This document shows, piece after piece, positions 7,806 to 55,235 of a DNA stretch of 64,000 nt (position 1 is its first letter; each line of letters opens with the position of its first letter). The stretch lies in assembly GCF_009914755.1 (NCBI RefSeq), contig NC_060929.1. One strand, 5' to 3'. The translations under genes and the position numbers were made by a program. This stretch comes from the human T2T-CHM13v2.0 reference genome, Homo sapiens. Below the pieces are notes generated by a model. That model was not told the origin of the DNA and ran no database searches. It worked only from the letters and a program-made list of their open reading frames with translations.

Positions 7806-8889
7806 TTGTCATTCTTCACTAAGTGATAACTTCTGCTAAATGGATAGACAAAGGATTGGGTTACAAAGAAGAACAGTCCCCAAAGTTATATTTAAATGAC
7901 ATGCTCAGAACGTGGTGTAGAAAAGCTGCCATGAATTATGTATGGGGCCTTTGCTTTCAGACCTTCACACAAATATGGGAAAAATGGTTTAATCAGACAT
8001 TGTAGCATTAACCATGGTCTGTTCATAAAATTGCATTATGAAAGAATCTATATGTTATTTTTTATGAATTGTGATTTCCTAATCATAATTTTGCATCCAC
8101 ATCCCTGATGCCAACATGATGCCATAAAACACAACTCAGCCCTCTCCTGTGTTAAAAGGTAAAAATTTTTCTTTGCTTTCCTTCACAAATACAAAAATGT
8201 TTTCCCAAGTAAGTTCTAAACCCAGTCTTCAGTCACTTCAAAGAACTGTTTGTACTTTAGGAAGAGATGTCTTGTTTTAATAAGAAAATGTAATTTATTG
8301 CTCATTCAACATATTAAGAATTCTAACTTGCCTCTCCTGAAAAAGTGTGGGAGTTCACATGCCTGGTAGCCCCTCCCCAGTTACTGGTAAGGCTATTTCC
8401 AATTTGTTTAAATGAACCATAGACAGGATTGCCATTATATGTATGAGGAGGAAATGGAAATTTACATTATATGAATTGAAAACAAGACAAAAAAAAAAAG
8501 TGTGTGCTCAACCAAAATGAAAAAAATAAAGACTCCATCTAATTTAATTATTCTTACTGAAAATTTCCTTAATAGAGAACAACTCTTTAAACTGTGCAAT
8601 ATCAGATAATGCAATTGCATTTTATGGAACAAATTGAAATGGATGATATTAGACTTCTACTGAGAGCAAGCTTTAATTTTAATAAAAGCAGTGTCAGGGA
8701 GAGTCTGAAGGCAACGGATGCCCTAAAGTAACATATAAGGGGAAAAGATGGGGTGGAGGGTAAGGTGATGCCACAGAAAGAGAGTGTTCTCTTGGATGAA
8801 TGTCCTTATTAGACTCATTAGTAAGGCATGCTAGGACCAGAGTGATTAGATTGAACTCAAATAATTCTAGACACCTCAGATTTACTACC

Positions 8890-9190: not shown

Positions 9191-11339
9191 ATCTGAAAAG
9201 CATGACGCTGAATCCAATTTCACTCCAGCTACATACGTTGGCCCCCATTCATATTATGTATAGTTCAGTTGAATGCTGGGATTTATAACTCTGTTCGTAT
9301 AAATTCATGTGTCTATATGTAATACATATATGCATGTATATATATATGTGTATATAATTATAAAGAAATATATATTCATATTTATTTTGTAAATTTTGTC
9401 ACAAAAATTTTTTTCATGACAAAAATTTCAATTTATCTAATAGACAGGAATGAGGCATAATGCATTATACCAGAAAAAAAATCTCCTTTTCTTTCTACAG
9501 TATTATTCAAAATAAAAGTTATAAAGCTTATTAGAATGTTTTTTAGTGAGGGGTGTAATTTAGAGACAAAAAGAGAACACCAATTGTTTTATCTCATTAA
9601 ATCATTTTAAAAATAAACTCTCTAATTTACGAAGACCTACCAAATTTTATAATTGAGAACTATCTTGGTCTTTTAAACTTATCTTTATTTTAATTCTTCA
9701 GATGAAATGTATGACAATTCTGCAATATCTTCCTAGTTAAACAAAAAGCATGATATATATTTGTGAAATTCAAAGGACATTGTCAACCCCAATGGAGTTA
9801 GATTGGCCCACATTTGCAACGTCGTTTGTCTTCATAAAGACAGTCTGTCTGTTACACCTCATCTTGCACTCTGCAGAAATGCTACATGTAATATTAAGAG
9901 ATTTTTATAGAAAAAAAACATGCAGCTTAAGAAAAAATCCTTTCAGTAACAAATCAATGTATTCCAATACATCTACTCAGTAGCTGTAGCTTAACTACGG
10001 TTTGGGAGGTTTCATGAAAGAGAGAGAAGGAAATGAAGGCAAGAGGAGTGGGAAGGAAAATTAAAAAAAAAAAATGATACTGCCTAGCTACAAGCTGCAG
10101 AGGGAAATTAATATTCAAAAGGTTAAGGTGTCTGTGAAATGTGTGTAATGAGTAACACTCATAGTTTGTTACTATAGGTTCATTGCCTCTAATGTTGAGG
10201 ACGGCACATGGATAATTTACGATTCCCATTGTCCCCTCTGCAGGGATTAATTCTGAATTATTTATGTACCTATATACGCACAGAACTGAAACATTTTAGT
10301 TAAAGTCAGCCACTCACTCATAGTCTTGAAATTATGCAGCCCTTGTTGCTAAAAATGATGTTAGCCTCTTGTGATTTAAGTCATAACATTTTATTTTCGG
10401 TCCCACTGAGAGAGAAGGCATGCAGGAGGGGGGAAAGATATATTTTTCTAGGATAAATCTCAGAATGCATTTTTTAAAGATGTAAACAGATAATGGTAAT
10501 TTCGTTGAGTCAAATTATTGTTGTAGAGAGTATGTAAATAAACCTTTATTTAATTCGTGATTTGTGATTTTGTATTGGTTCACTCTAAGACTTGTTTTTA
10601 CGTGGGTATCTTTAAATATAAAGCCTCTGCATTTCAATAAAGGGAACTCCACCTACGTACTGATTAATCAAAGAATAAAATTTTATTTTTGGAAAAGTGT
10701 TCTAATCCATTCAGATTTCATACCCAACCATTTCATTTAGTCAACTGAATTCAGAAAAAGTACTGTTTCCACTTAAACTCCGGTGATTACTCACTGCTAT
10801 TAAAGACTCCTTTGATTATATCAGAATTAATTTTTTAAAATGCAGGTATTACCCCCCTTTCTCAAAAATAACAGATTGTATTCTGGACTGACAATGTGTT
10901 TCATAGGGGCTAACCTTATCAGCATAAGAATATCTTACAATTTTTAATGCATTGAATTTTAAACATTTCATTCAATATGCTTTTTTTGCAATTTTGGTAT
11001 AAATTATAGGTCCCCATATATTTAATCAAATTTCTTTAAGTGAAAAAATCAAAATGTCCCATATGCAATTATTTTAAGAGAAAAATCTGAATGGAAAAAA
11101 AAAAGTCTCCAAACAACTGACCCCAGCCCTTTGGAATTTAGACTGTCTAGTCTCTTCTGATCTTAGAATTTATGTCTCCCTAATAATTAAGGTGCATCTC
11201 AAGTAGACACGCTGTCACATACGGTATTGAGTATGAAAATAGATACGGAATTAGAAGTATTCAAAGAGCAAAAGAAAATATATATATATATGCACACATA
11301 TAAGACATCAATTTCTCTTTTAGCCTCCACCCCATACAA

Positions 11340-11860
11340 TTCAACAATTGCTAATAAATTAGGAGGAGGGGCATATTGATGTACTGCTTGACTATAACAC
11401 AAAGAAGTGTAGTTAGCAAAAAGCTGCAGTGGGTAATGAACAGTATTTTAACTCGGCAGTTTAACCTCCGTGTCTGTCAGCTGTGACCTTTTACCAACCC
11501 CAATGAGAGTCTGATTTCTCACTTTTGCTACTCACTGCTGGATGAGTGAATGTAGAATTTGACAGCGAGAGGTTTTACATGAAAAGGAAAGGTACTTAAA
11601 AAGCATGTTTTGTGATGATAGGCTACATTTATTCACTGTTCATTACGCTTGGTGCAGCAGCCGCGTTGGTGGATTGATTGGGTGTGAGCAGCTTGTCTGC
11701 TATGGAAGTGAAGAGGCGTTATTGACCTGCATGGGAGCTGAAGTGACCTCTAGATGACCCCCCTTTCACCTGAAATTGACCTTGAAAACAACGTAGGGTT
11801 CACTCCCATTTAAAAAGGAGGGAAATTCTTCTAACAGCATGTGAATTATTAGAATTGATA
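11340..11860. promoter_or_regulatory. Candidate enhancer with clustered nuclear-receptor (DR5/RARE), MEIS/PBX and E-box motifs
   Basis: Unique sequence with several retained CpGs; TGACCT/TGACCC/TCACCT half-sites at 11484, 11723, 11744, 11755, 11766, 11777; ctgtca/tgacag, gattgattgg, cagctg. Confidence 0.6.
11744..11760 (-). promoter_or_regulatory. Consensus DR5 retinoic-acid response element (GGGTCA-tctag-AGGTCA)
   Basis: Plus strand TGACCTctagaTGACCC equals RGKTCA-n5-RGKTCA on the minus strand; function untested. Confidence 0.6.
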
Positions 11861-14543
11861 TATTGAGCATTTCCTTTCCTTCCCCCGCCTTTTTTTTTTT
11901 TTTTTTAACTTTTACAAAGGTAAATGCTTGTAGGGGGTAAGGCAAGTGTTGGCTTTTAAATTTCTGGACTCTGCAGCTGCTCTGTTTGGTGTTTGTACAG
12001 ATTTATGGAGAGGGCCAACCAGACTTTGGACTGCTTGATGTAAAATTTTACCATTCATCATTATTGATTAGAGTCCACACTCTATGACAGAGCCCAAACC
12101 TTACTATGACAATTGCTATTTCAGTTGTTATGAGCCATAATGGGCCATAGGGATGATTTAAAGGAGCACAATAGCTATCTGTAATTACACATGAATAATC
12201 CATGAATTCTACACCACAATGCTTATGATCAGACCCTAACAACCAAGGCTTGAGACATTAATTCTTGTTCTCTTTTTGGCACCTGTGCCAAAAGTCACCA
12301 ATTTATGAAAATATAAGCACAACAAGCTTACCCTCTCGCATGTTCAAAGTTAAGTTTTAATTCTTGGTTAAAAATAGATAACACCCTTGGAAAGTGATAA
12401 AATATTGCATTTTCACAGATGGTTTTATCAGTAATTTAACTTGCTTCTTATTAGAAAAGAATGCCAATTATTATTTCATCAATTAGTATCAAGAAAATGT
12501 ATTAGAAACTAGGTATAATGGTGGACAGAATCAGATTTTACTTTAGTCTTTATTCTCATATTTGGCCAAATAAATAATTTGAGGAAAAAAATCAAGATCA
12601 TAGATTAGGTCCTATGATACAATGGAAATTTGATAGCTCTCATAGAAGCTTTACACTAACCTAGAAATATGTATGACATGCCTCAACAGTAAATTATTCT
12701 CTAATTTTATGTTAAATGAGGAGATGGAGAAACTATTTGCCCACTGAGCTTATGCATATGTGCAGCCCCTGAGGCTCAGGGTGCTGGCACAAACATATAA
12801 CACAAACTAATAAAAGATCACATTTATTAGTGGCTTCTCAAGATAGTCCCATATCCAGAACATATCTCGGAGAGCAGACCACCCTGTGGATATAATAATT
12901 TTAAGGGTATTTTTAGGAATGGCCAATTTTTCCGTTGGTACTTTCAGAAGACTCCAACACTTACAGATCCCAAACTGGGAAATCTATGCTAAGTTTTTGT
13001 AAGCTTGCTTTTTCTAGTTCTTAGAATTTTTGTAACCAACTGCTTGATTTACTCTACTTGGAGATTTTAATTTCCTGACAATTTATAAAGCAACTTTTGG
13101 CAGTGGTTTTGGTCTATCTAGCACATATTCCAGAAAAGTGTCCCTTCTGCCTGGTTTATGACAATATTTCAGTAGTTCAACCTATTTGGAGCATAATAGT
13201 GTTGTTTAACTCAGATGCATTTTTCATACGGTTCAAATATTTACATGCACGGTTACAGGCTTATTAGCAATCTGGTGAAGTATTTGTAAATCTGGATCAA
13301 AATTTTGACAGGATATTTATTGCGTTAACTTGACCTATTTTCTATCTAAAGCTCTATTCCATAATTCTTGTTTCATTTGATGTTAATCCTATGCATAAAA
13401 GACAGTAACGAGGATATTTGAACACAAAAATATTCTAGCATCCACACAGGAGGATTCTACTAATCTGATTTTGTTCCTACCTCCCCCAGTGTGTGAGGTG
13501 CTTACACCTATGACTGTTCAAAACTCCATGAAGCCCCAACTTAACCAATGCAAGTTATCTATTACATTTTATTTTCCTCCTCTCTCATTATGGTGATGAA
13601 CCCCTGCAAGGATCCTCAGCAGGTTAGGGGACTTGCAAATTGCAATTATTCTAATTTAGGATCATACCATGCTTTTTTTTTAATCCTTGGGAACATTTTT
13701 TTCTCCATTCAAATGCTTCTAATATTGAACTATGTTTTGAATATTCTGCTAAATGGGCTTCATGGCAAGACTGAATATAAATTTTAAAAAGTAACTGATG
13801 TAGAATTAAATAAAGGATGACACAAGCTTTTTACCTGTCATGTAAACAATTTTTTCCAAATATTATTTATTCTTAACCATTCACATTTATCTGTACATCA
13901 AACAAACACAAAGCAGGAATGTGTTTTCTTCAACAGCAAATTCTTTACAGAATGTCACAAAAATAAAGACTTGTAATTGGTATGACATTAGAAATCCATG
14001 TACTTATCTAGTCAGCCTCCATCTCATCTTTGTTCCTACCTCTCTATAAAGGATAAGGCAGTTTTGCCCAAAGGAAGAAATAAAAGGGAATCCTCGTTAA
14101 AAGGTACATTAACGAAAAAAGAACAGCTTTATTGGGGTATGTGCAGAAAGGGATGTTTGAGTAGTAAATGATAATTTACTTTTGAGGTATATTAAAAAAG
14201 GTTTAATCTTACTGATCATGAGTTAAATTGGATGTTTTAATCAGTTAGCGAGTGCCAAAAATAATTATGCCAGAGTGCTTAGTCTGCAGAACGTGTACAC
14301 AAAGCATATAAATCCTTTGCTTCCCCAGGGATTTCTCAGAATAACACACAACAAAAAGACAAAAGCGATATCAAACTCATATAAATTAACATTGCAAATG
14401 ATCTGAAAAATACAATAAATAACATGATCCCATCACTTTGAATATGTAGCACAAGGAAGGGTGTCCAACACAAATATAGGCATTAATCTCTTGTATCCTT
14501 CCTAAACTTTTTTCAGTAAACTTTTCTTCCATTTACTTTCTGT

Positions 14544-14560
14544 AGTTCAACTCAAGGTCA
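14544..14560 (+). promoter_or_regulatory. Consensus DR5 RARE (AGTTCA-actca-AGGTCA) overlapping a TCAAGGTCA ERR/NR5A site
   Basis: Direct reading: tgtAGTTCAactcaAGGTCAttcc; function untested. Confidence 0.55.
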
Positions 14561-54937: not shown

Positions 54938-55235
54938 GTCGGACCTAGTAGCTCACGCCTGTAATCCCAGCACTTTCAGAGGCTGAGGTGGGTGGATCAC
55001 CTGAGGTCAGGAGTTCAAGACCAGCCTGGCCAATATGGTGAAACCCTGTCTCTACTAAAAATACAAAAAGTTAGCCGGGAGTGGTGGCATGCACTTGTAG
55101 TTCCAGCTACTGGGGAGGCTGAGGCAAGAAAATTGCTTGAACCCGGGAGTTAGAGGTTTCAGTGAGCCAAGATTGGGCATGGCACTCCAGCCTGGGTGAC
55201 AAAAGCAAATCTCCATCTCAAAAAAAAAAAAAAAA
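54938..55235 (+). mobile_element. AluSx/Sq-type SINE
   Basis: gatcacctgaggtcaggagttcaagaccagcctggcc; poly-A; 12-bp TSD tacagattccca (54926-37 / 55237-48). Confidence 0.97.

What the first reader, a model, noticed from the sequence alone, without database searches (positions are those of the whole stretch)
11723..11802. Four nuclear-receptor half-sites at exact 11-bp periodicity: three chained DR5 elements
Seen: TGACCT(11744)-ctaga-TGACCC(11755)-ccctt-TCACCT(11766)-gaaat-TGACCT(11777). On the minus strand this is AGGTCA-n5-AGGTGA-n5-GGGTCA-n5-AGGTCA. The spacers differ, so it is not a recent tandem duplication. Extra half-sites sit at 11723 (TGACCT) and 11797 (GGTTCA), and the last site extends to TGACCTTGA (ERR/NR5A motif). 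Known: RGKTCA-n5-RGKTCA is the classic RXR/RAR element. Inference: roughly one-helical-turn phasing would let two heterodimers bind side by side on one DNA face, forming a composite, possibly cooperative retinoic-acid switch in non-repeat DNA.
Basis: partly seen in the sequence, partly recalled or inferred. Interest (0 to 1): 0.8.

Follow-up and report, generated by a model that had tools for sequence, protein, structure and literature searches.

The report
Fish-conserved four-site receptor element near NR2F1
Four evenly spaced nuclear-receptor half-sites sit inside a 70-base stretch kept from pufferfish to human far upstream of NR2F1, so they probably form a hormone-receptor docking site in a long-range enhancer, though no binding has been shown.

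Summary
Window 11744-11782 reads TGACCT-n5-TGACCC-n5-TCACCT-n5-TGACCT, with extra half-sites at 11723 and 11797.

- **Not a repeat or RNA:** it is single-copy and not a tandem repeat, known RNA or ORF.
- **Not chance:** no chain of four appeared in 400 Markov simulations of the window. Among the 100 listed of 102 genome-wide three-site chains, 10 loci reach four sites. Nine are minisatellite arrays; this is the only one with unrelated spacers.
- **Conserved:** window 11743-11812 is identical to CONDOR element CRCNE00008155, a human-Fugu conserved non-coding element. It belongs to a roughly 900-bp cluster of such elements in CONDOR's NR2F1 region. It lies about 872 kb upstream of the NR2F1 DNA-binding exon, in a desert shown to regulate Nr2f1 in rodents.
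- **Caveat on the motif:** the third site, AGGTGA, fits RGKTSA but not RGKTCA, and overlaps a CACCTG E-box.

Best reading: a conserved composite nuclear-receptor element in DR5 register, with RAR/RXR the leading candidate. No occupancy or retinoic-acid response is shown. Published Nr2f1 retinoic-acid elements lie elsewhere. I class it as a new variant of a known kind, of moderate interest.

The parts
11744..11749 (-). Half-site H4, AGGTCA on the minus strand. It is the 3' site of the only strictly canonical DR5 (H3-H4).
11755..11760 (-). Half-site H3, GGGTCA on the minus strand.
11766..11771 (-). Half-site H2, AGGTGA on the minus strand. It fits RGKTSA but not RGKTCA. It overlaps the CACCTG E-box (11767-11772) and a TTC-n4-GAA palindrome (11765-11774).
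   Evidence: E-box and palindrome read directly; factor names recalled
11777..11785 (-). Half-site H1, AGGTCA (11777-11782) with its 5' extension, reading TCAAGGTCA on the minus strand. This is an extended monomer-type site.
   Evidence: assignment to ERR/NR5A recalled, and names ESRRB/NR5A2 monomer motifs
11797..11802 (+). Fifth half-site, GGTTCA, in the opposite orientation, 14 nt from H1 and inside the conserved element.
11723..11728 (-). Sixth half-site, AGGTCA on the minus strand, 15 nt from H4 (21 nt start to start). It lies outside the conserved element.
11743..11812 (.). CONDOR conserved non-coding element CRCNE00008155 (70 nt, human-Fugu), identical to the window.
   Evidence: Additional file 7 of PMC3261376
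11332..11520 (.). Neighbouring element CRCNE00008153. Its first base differs from the window. It holds CTGTCA and TGACCTTT, both kept in the zebrafish copy.
11551..11604 (.). Neighbouring element CRCNE00008154, which contains TGACAG.
12097..12143 (.). Neighbouring element CRCNE00008156.
12158..12207 (.). Neighbouring element CRCNE00008157, which has a zebrafish copy in Additional file 9.

Best explanation
The four phased half-sites are the core of an ancient conserved non-coding element (CRCNE00008155). It is one block of a roughly 900-bp cluster of fish-conserved elements, about 872 kb upstream of NR2F1 inside that gene's regulatory desert. The most likely function is a composite nuclear-receptor response element within a long-range NR2F1 enhancer. 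On the minus strand the order is AGGTCA-n5-AGGTGA-n5-GGGTCA-n5-AGGTCA. An 11-nt centre-to-centre spacing is about one helical turn, so all four sites face the same side of the DNA. In DR5 register the element can take RXR-containing dimers. RAR/RXR is the leading candidate, either as one dimer on the canonical GGGTCA-tctag-AGGTCA pair or as two dimers on sites 1-2 and 3-4. That would give NR2F1 a direct retinoic-acid input from a distance. Shown: the sequence, its uniqueness, its conservation and its genomic setting. Inferred: which receptors bind, how many, and the target gene.
For: The pattern is real and non-random.

Genome-wide, 10 loci among the 100 listed of 102 three-site chains reach four sites. 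Nine are tandem arrays with near-identical spacers; this locus alone has unrelated spacers. No non-array 4-chain appears among the 100 listed of 122 hits at 4-nt spacing.

Window 11743-11812 equals CONDOR CRCNE00008155. CONDOR keeps only elements conserved in at least four divergent vertebrates including Fugu. The IDs 8143 and 8215 that bracket it are labelled as NR2F1 region.

The best zf-C4 hit in the genome, the NR2F1 DNA-binding exon, is at C5:94069339, which is 871.6 kb away. The desert between Nr2f1 and Arrdc3 regulates Nr2f1 over more than 800 kb in rodents, and deleting 535 kb of it lowers Nr2f1 by more than 80% in mammary gland.

RGKTSA is the accepted receptor core, and most RAR/RXR-bound elements are composites of more than two half-sites. 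Conserved RAREs with AGGTGA or GGGTGA half-sites exist, as does a three-site composite at Tshz1.

Nr2f1 is RA-dependent in mouse trunk and in zebrafish endoderm (5.3-fold up with RA, 7.8-fold down with BMS493). The Nr2f1 promoter has no consensus DR2 or DR5.

Window 11200-11900 has the highest CpG retention of the unmasked DNA in the window, with observed/expected 0.42-0.48 against a median of 0.14.
Against: I could find no RAR, RXR or any other occupancy data for this site.

In E8.5 mouse trunk the only RARE reported for Nr2f1 within RA-regulated chromatin marks is a DR1 near exon 1.

In F9 cells RAR-gamma and RXR-alpha were not seen on the Nr2f1 gene. Only the gene region was described, so this says nothing about the distal desert.

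nr2f1a appears only in the expression tables of the zebrafish RAR ChIP-seq paper's held supplements, not in its site tables. No zebrafish or lamprey copy of this element is in the CONDOR-derived files.

Site 2 is non-canonical and overlaps an E-box.

The target gene is inferred from position and from CONDOR's region label, not from contact data for this element.
Confidence: 0.45

Rival explanations
1. It is a conserved nuclear-receptor element, but the occupants are orphan receptors and there is no retinoic-acid dependence. Candidates are NR2F1/NR2F2 dimers (autoregulation), an ERR/NR5A monomer on TCAAGGTCA, or NR4A/RXR on DR5.
For: [quoted passage not shown] Its human copy lies 266 kb away at C5:93463819-838. 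Site 1 reads TCAAGGTCA. describes composite elements as hubs shared by RAR/RXR, ESRRB, NR5A2, COUP-TFs and GCNF. The neighbouring element has a zebrafish-conserved TGACCTTT. No RA-linked data exist for this site.
Against: NR2F dimers prefer DR1 (stated, from the passages of PMC3681674), and there is no DR1 here. A uniform 5-nt spacing kept three times is the hallmark of RXR heterodimer geometry rather than of monomer sites. That COUP-TFs are promiscuous across spacings is recalled, not tested.
Confidence: 0.25
2. The element is conserved for factors other than nuclear receptors, and the half-site chain is a by-product. Candidates include an E-box factor (bHLH, ZEB or SNAIL) on CACCTG, a STAT-type factor on TTCACCTGAA, or unknown factors reading the whole 70 nt.
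For: The conserved element runs 30 nt beyond the chain and includes the spacers, as expected if the whole block is read. CACCTG and the TTTCA-CC-TGAAA palindrome overlap site 2. Neighbouring elements carry MEIS-type TGACAG/CTGTCA motifs. There are no receptor occupancy data.
Against: About 0.22 RGKTSA sites are expected in 70 nt and five are present, giving Poisson P about 4e-6. Four of them are on the same strand with identical spacing. From the RGKTSA site density, my own estimate of the chance expectation of such a chain anywhere in all 6693 CONDOR elements (about 0.78 Mb) is of order 1e-5. The element starts one base before the first half-site.
Confidence: 0.2
3. It is a chance or relic arrangement with no present function, for example an ancient 11-nt tandem duplication whose spacers have decayed.
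For: The periodic structure is what a decayed 11-mer array would look like. Units 3 and 4 share 7 of 11 bases (read). Five sites within 60 nt occur in 2-3.5% of simulated windows. The scan looked at very many windows.
Against: Conservation between human and Fugu and at least two other vertebrates is incompatible with neutral decay. TRF and repeat searches find nothing. No 4-chain occurred in 400 simulations.
Confidence: 0.05

Closest known systems
Classical DR5 retinoic-acid response elements (for example Rarb GGTTCA-ccgaa-AGTTCA, Hoxa1, Dhrs3, Meis1/2 as listed in PMC7259794 Table 2)
   Same: Direct repeats of the receptor core with a 5-nt spacer, conserved across vertebrates, near RA-regulated developmental transcription-factor genes. 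GGGTCA-tctag-AGGTCA here matches the consensus exactly.
   Different: Known elements have two half-sites, or two separate DR5 as at Dhrs3. Here four sites share three consecutive 5-nt spacers. One site is AGGTGA. The element is about 872 kb from the gene, and no RAR binding or RA response has been shown.
Composite hormone response elements or 'nuclear-receptor hubs' in RAR/RXR ChIP-seq regions (Chatagnon et al. 2015, PMC4446430, passages read) and the Tshz1 DR2+DR5 three-site element
   Same: More than two RGKTSA half-sites with shared middle sites. At Tshz1 the shared site is also a GGTGA-type hexamer. These elements are proposed to be read by several receptors.
   Different: The reported composites mix spacings (DR0/DR2/DR5/DR8). 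A homogeneous chain of three DR5 was not described in the passages read.
CRBPII-type RXR response element and RXR tetramers on four consecutive half-sites (PMC3167614, Table 1 and passages; details of the element recalled)
   Same: Four same-strand half-sites at constant spacing, and a precedent for higher-order cooperative receptor binding.
   Different: That element has 1-nt spacers (recalled) and is read by RXR homo-oligomers. Here the spacers are 5 nt, which places successive sites on the same DNA face.
Mcs1a conserved COUP-TF motif in the same gene desert (Smits et al. 2013, PMC3681674; abstract, passages, Tables S1 and S3)
   Same: A fish-conserved distal element of the Nr2f1 desert carrying nuclear-receptor half-sites, and looped to the Nr2f1 promoter in rat.
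   Different: It is a different sequence (a DR1-type motif), located 266 kb nearer to NR2F1 in human. It is absent from this window. Our element lies 93 kb beyond marker rf7 and was not examined in that paper.
CONDOR fish-mammal conserved non-coding elements (PMC2020477; PMC3261376 Additional file 7)
   Same: The element is itself an entry (CRCNE00008155): single-copy, non-coding and clustered around a developmental transcription-factor gene.
   Different: The database records conservation only. In the papers and supplements I read, no motif content or function is given for this entry.

Membership tests
DR5 retinoic-acid response element (RAR/RXR) | Two direct-repeat half-sites of the receptor core separated by 5 nt | tested here: met
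   11744-11760 fits RGKTCA-n5-RGKTCA. 11755-11771 and 11766-11782 fit only RGKTSA.
DR5 retinoic-acid response element (RAR/RXR) | Bound by RAR/RXR in vitro or in vivo | not testable with these tools
   No ChIP or binding data were reachable. The papers read report no site here.
DR5 retinoic-acid response element (RAR/RXR) | Confers retinoic-acid-dependent transcription | not testable with these tools
   This needs a reporter or deletion experiment. Only the RA dependence of the presumed target gene is documented.
Fish-mammal conserved non-coding element (CONDOR) | Sequence conserved between Fugu and mammals (at least four vertebrate genomes), non-coding | tested here: met
   There is a 70/70 identity to CRCNE00008155. 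There is no ORF beyond 82 codons, no Rfam family and no fold signal. The Fugu sequence itself was not seen.
Fish-mammal conserved non-coding element (CONDOR) | Belongs to a cluster in synteny with a developmental regulator gene | tested here: met
   Neighbours 8153, 8154, 8156 and 8157 lie within about 900 bp. IDs 8143 and 8215 are labelled NR2F1, so the label for 8155 is inferred from ID order. The NR2F1 DNA-binding exon is 872 kb away.
Composite hormone response element | More than two core half-sites, each within 9 nt of the next | tested here: met
   Four sites have 5-nt gaps.
Tandem repeat / minisatellite | Whole units, spacers included, similar to each other | tested here: not met
   TRF at minimum score 30 finds only a poly-T run. 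Spacers share 1 of 5 bases pairwise. This contrasts with the nine array loci.
Dispersed repeat / transposon-derived copy | Other copies in the genome | tested here: not met
   The 201-nt and 1101-nt queries hit only themselves, apart from poly-T. Very old, diverged families could be missed.
RXR tetramer element of CRBPII type | Four consecutive half-sites with 1-nt spacers | tested here: not met
   The spacers are 5 nt. The family's spacing is recalled; 'four consecutive half-sites' is.
Extended monomer site (ERR / NR5A type) | TCAAGGTCA-type extended half-site | tested here: met
   11777-11785 reads TCAAGGTCA on the minus strand. The consensus is recalled and occupancy cannot be tested.

The most novel reading that the evidence does not exclude
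This is an ancient (human-Fugu) quadruple-DR5 'retinoid rheostat'. Two RAR/RXR heterodimers, or a bridged higher-order RXR complex, load cooperatively on one face of the DNA. That would give NR2F1 a switch-like, direct retinoic-acid input from about 872 kb away. It is the only non-array element of this architecture in the human genome, and it would help explain how NR2F1 responds to RA without a consensus DR2 or DR5 in its promoter.
Probability: 0.15. Interest if true: 0.75.

Novelty: new variant of a known kind. Interest (0 to 1): 0.5.

Why it matters
NR2F1 (COUP-TFI) is a classic retinoic-acid-induced developmental regulator, and how it receives that input has been debated. One study found no consensus DR2 or DR5 in the promoter and raised the possibility that it is a secondary target. 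A later study proposed a DR1 near exon 1. A deeply conserved chain of DR5 sites in the gene's long-range regulatory desert is a concrete, testable candidate for a distal receptor input.

The same desert modifies mammary cancer susceptibility in rats through Nr2f1.

The architecture is also a natural test case for cooperative loading of neighbouring receptor dimers: four sites, all on one helical face, and unique in the genome outside minisatellites.

If the sites prove irrelevant, the element remains an ordinary catalogued conserved element.

Tried and rejected
- **Tandem repeat:** TRF and the repeat finder give nothing beyond half-site matches.
- **Dispersed repeat or paralogue:** whole-genome DNA searches hit only self plus poly-T. 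A 24-nt core pattern with up to 3 mismatches gave 5 non-self hits against 3 for the reversed control, none on chromosome 15 near NR2F2. The two DR5-like hits, on chr9 and chr6, have unrelated flanks.
- **RNA gene or structure:** there are only sub-threshold Rfam hits, and fold z-scores are +0.39 and -0.38.
- **Coding exon:** the longest stop-to-stop frame is 82 codons.
- **Identity with the Mcs1a COUP-TF element:** rejected. That motif is absent from the window and maps 266 kb away. The rf6 and rf7 primers are absent from the window, and rf7 maps 93 kb away. Whether the mouse 535-kb deletion covers our element could not be settled, because its coordinates are only in a figure.
- **Spot silencer (PMC5117235):** it lies about 49 kb from Nr2f1 and is unrelated.
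- **In print:** the 17-nt DR5 and its complement occur in no main text of the searched library. They are also absent from the VISTA, cneBrowser, lamprey and zebrafish files of PMC3261376 (this assumes those files are not line-wrapped) and from the held supplements of PMC1896008 and PMC2781166.
- **Mammal alignments:** PMC4302572 used only elements of at least 100 nt, so this 70-nt element is not covered.
- **Control spacings:** the 6-nt control was swamped by telomere-like repeats and is uninformative.
- **Other attempts:** A first simulation script timed out and was re-run in a lighter form.
- **Fugu sequence:** it was not found in any file I could read.

Full report
**1. Observation**

The window reads, on the + strand, TGACCT (11744) ctaga TGACCC (11755) ccctt TCACCT (11766) gaaat TGACCT (11777). 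There is a further TGACCT at 11723 and a GGTTCA at 11797. On the minus strand this is TGAACC-n14-AGGTCA-n5-AGGTGA-n5-GGGTCA-n5-AGGTCA-n15-AGGTCA.

One qualification applies. AGGTGA does not fit RGKTCA, so under the strict consensus only 11744-11760 is a DR5. The other two DR5 need the wider core RGKTSA. That wider core is the one used in RAR/RXR ChIP-seq work (PMC4446430, passages). Conserved RAREs with AGGTGA or GGGTGA half-sites are listed in PMC7259794 Table 2.

**2. Is it more than chance?**

- The window holds 220 RGKTSA sites, and this is its only cluster of four or more same-strand sites within 60 nt.
- In 200 order-1 and 200 order-3 Markov simulations, an equal-period chain of four or more never occurred. 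Chains of three or more occurred 2 and 4 times.
- Simple crowding is less rare: five or more sites in 60 nt on either strand occurred in 7 and 4 of 200 simulations.
Across eleven spacings the wide definition gives about 0.6, so the pattern alone is suggestive rather than overwhelming.

The genome-wide counts sharpen this. The three-site pattern has 102 matches in the genome, against 42 for the reversed control, and 100 of them were listed. Ten loci contain adjacent matches, meaning four or more sites. Nine are arrays with near-identical spacers. This locus is the only one whose spacers are unrelated, sharing 1 of 5 bases in each pair.

At 4-nt spacing there were 122 matches, 100 of them listed, and every four-site chain lies in an array. 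The 6-nt control was dominated by telomere-like repeats and says nothing.

**3. What it is not**

- TRF at minimum score 30 finds only the poly-T run at 11890-11906.
- The repeat finder finds only 8-9-nt matches built on the half-sites.
- The 201-nt and 1101-nt regions are single-copy apart from poly-T hits.
- Rfam gives only sub-threshold hits.
- Neither strand folds better than shuffles.
- There is no notable open frame.

**4. What it is**

The 17-nt canonical DR5 occurs once in the supplements of Parker et al. 2011 (PMC3261376). It is in Additional file 7, the CONDOR set of 6693 human elements shared with Fugu. The entry is CRCNE00008155, 70 nt long and identical to window 11743-11812.

The element begins one base before the first half-site. 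It contains all four chained sites and the inverted GGTTCA, and it excludes the site at 11723.

CONDOR derives its elements from Fugu-mammal multiple alignments. It keeps only those conserved in at least four divergent vertebrates including Fugu (PMC2020477, passage). I did not see the numerical identity threshold or the Fugu sequence.

Flanking entries map to the window as follows:

| Entry | Window position |
|---|---|
| CRCNE00008153 | about 11332-11520 |
| CRCNE00008154 | 11551-11604 |
| CRCNE00008156 | 12097-12143 |
| CRCNE00008157 | 12158-12207 |

The chain is therefore one block of a roughly 900-bp cluster. The zebrafish file has copies of 8153, 8157 and 8158 but not 8154-8156, and the lamprey file has none of them. 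In 8153 the motifs CTGTCA and TGACCTTT are kept in zebrafish.

Independently, window 11200-11900 is in the top 1% of the window for CpG count and CpG observed/expected (0.42-0.48 against a median of 0.14). The other top windows are masked repeats.

By my own estimate from the RGKTSA density, the chance that any of the roughly 0.78 Mb of CONDOR elements holds such a chain at one spacing is of order 1e-5. The coincidence of chain and conserved element is therefore not accidental.

**5. Setting**

The best zf-C4 match in the genome is a complete DNA-binding domain at C5:94069339-94069545 (+), with a near-equal twin on C15. I take these to be NR2F1 and NR2F2. The names are recalled but fit several results. 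CONDOR labels the bracketing elements 8143 and 8215 as 'NR2F1'. The rat Mcs1a study places its markers in the desert between Nr2f1 and Arrdc3, and those markers map at C5:93.29 and 93.46 Mb. The chain is 871.6 kb upstream of the NR2F1 exon.

In rodents this desert regulates Nr2f1. A 535-kb deletion lowers Nr2f1 by more than 80% in mammary gland. A fish-conserved element loops to the promoter over about 820 kb and carries a conserved COUP-TF motif (PMC3681674; abstract, passages, Tables S1 and S3).

That motif is a different sequence from ours. It lies 266 kb nearer to NR2F1 in human and is not in this window. Our element lies 93 kb beyond marker rf7. I could not establish whether it falls inside the mouse deletion.

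**6. Mechanism**

Five receptor half-sites in 60 nt of a fish-conserved block, four of them in one orientation with identical 5-nt spacers, point to nuclear receptors as the readers. DR5 is the geometry of RXR heterodimers, above all RAR/RXR. This is established knowledge, and one search also states that DR5 was the top motif in zebrafish RAR peaks.

An 11-nt step is close to one helical turn. All four sites therefore face one side of the DNA, and so does the 11723 site, which starts 21 nt from 11744.

The simplest model is one heterodimer on the canonical GGGTCA-tctag-AGGTCA pair. The bolder model is two heterodimers on sites 1-2 and 3-4. RXR oligomers on four consecutive half-sites are a precedent for higher-order binding (PMC3167614, Table 1). 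Composite elements of more than two half-sites are common under RAR/RXR peaks and are proposed to be hubs shared with COUP-TFs, ESRRB, NR5A2 and GCNF.

NR2F1 is RA-dependent in mouse trunk and in zebrafish endoderm. Its promoter lacks a consensus DR2 or DR5.

**7. Evidence against the retinoic-acid reading**

- I found no occupancy or activity data for this site.
- The published Nr2f1 RA elements are a DR1 near exon 1, conserved to fish, and a region 2.4 kb upstream of the RefSeq start.
- The E8.5 trunk study, which looked within RA-regulated chromatin peaks, lists only that DR1 for Nr2f1.
- The held supplements of the zebrafish RAR study mention nr2f1a only in expression tables.
- Site 2 is also a CACCTG E-box and the centre of a TTC-n4-GAA palindrome. 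Site 1 reads TCAAGGTCA, a monomer-receptor motif. The factor assignments for these motifs are recalled.
- The conserved element spans the spacers too, so comparing half-site and spacer conservation within mammals may not discriminate. Distant species are needed.

**8. Verdict**

The element is real, non-random, single-copy and deeply conserved, and it is already catalogued as a conserved element, though without any motif reading in what I could search.

My odds are:

| Reading | Probability |
|---|---|
| Composite receptor element with RAR/RXR input | 0.45 |
| The same element read only by orphan receptors | 0.25 |
| Conserved for non-receptor factors | 0.20 |
| No function | 0.05 |

It is a new variant of a known kind, a homogeneous chain of three DR5 inside a distal enhancer. 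Interest is moderate, because it offers a concrete test of how NR2F1 receives receptor input.

Noticed in passing
window 14544-14560 (+): There is a second strictly canonical DR5, AGTTCA-actca-AGGTCA, whose 3' part also reads TCAAGGTCA. It is unmasked, 2.8 kb from the chain and 93 nt past the end of CRCNE00008158. It is not in any CONDOR element.
   Followed up: partly
window 11476-11492 (inside CRCNE00008153): CTGTCA (MEIS-type), a CAGCTG E-box and TGACCTTT lie side by side. CTGTCA and TGACCTTT are kept in the zebrafish copy and the E-box is not.
   Followed up: partly
L037 (G000:C9:20377833-20377856, minus strand): TGACCTGAAATTGACCTTGAAATA matches window 11766-11787 at 21 of 22 bases and forms a canonical DR5, but the flanks are unrelated. 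This is chance or convergence. The neighbouring gene was not determined.
   Followed up: partly
L032 (G000:C5:93463819-93463838, minus strand): This is the human copy, with 1 mismatch in 20, of the rat Mcs1a COUP-TF motif. It lies 605 kb from the NR2F1 DNA-binding exon, whereas the paper gives about 820 kb in rat. The rat interval between this motif and marker rf7 is also longer (251 kb against 173 kb in human).
   Followed up: no
window 55004-55017 (+): The DR2 AGGTCAGGAGTTCA lies in a masked repeat. It is probably an Alu-borne DR2; that family assignment is recalled.
   Followed up: no
whole window: Only 9% of the window is masked as repeats (hub annotation), GC is 34% and CpG observed/expected is 0.16. 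At least six CONDOR elements fall between 11332 and 14451. This is typical of a regulatory desert around a developmental gene.
   Followed up: partly
genome-wide: The 4-nt-spacing control is dominated by one dispersed sequence, TCACCCCTGGTCACCTGCTCTGACCT, present on many chromosomes. It is presumably part of an interspersed repeat family and was not identified.
   Followed up: no
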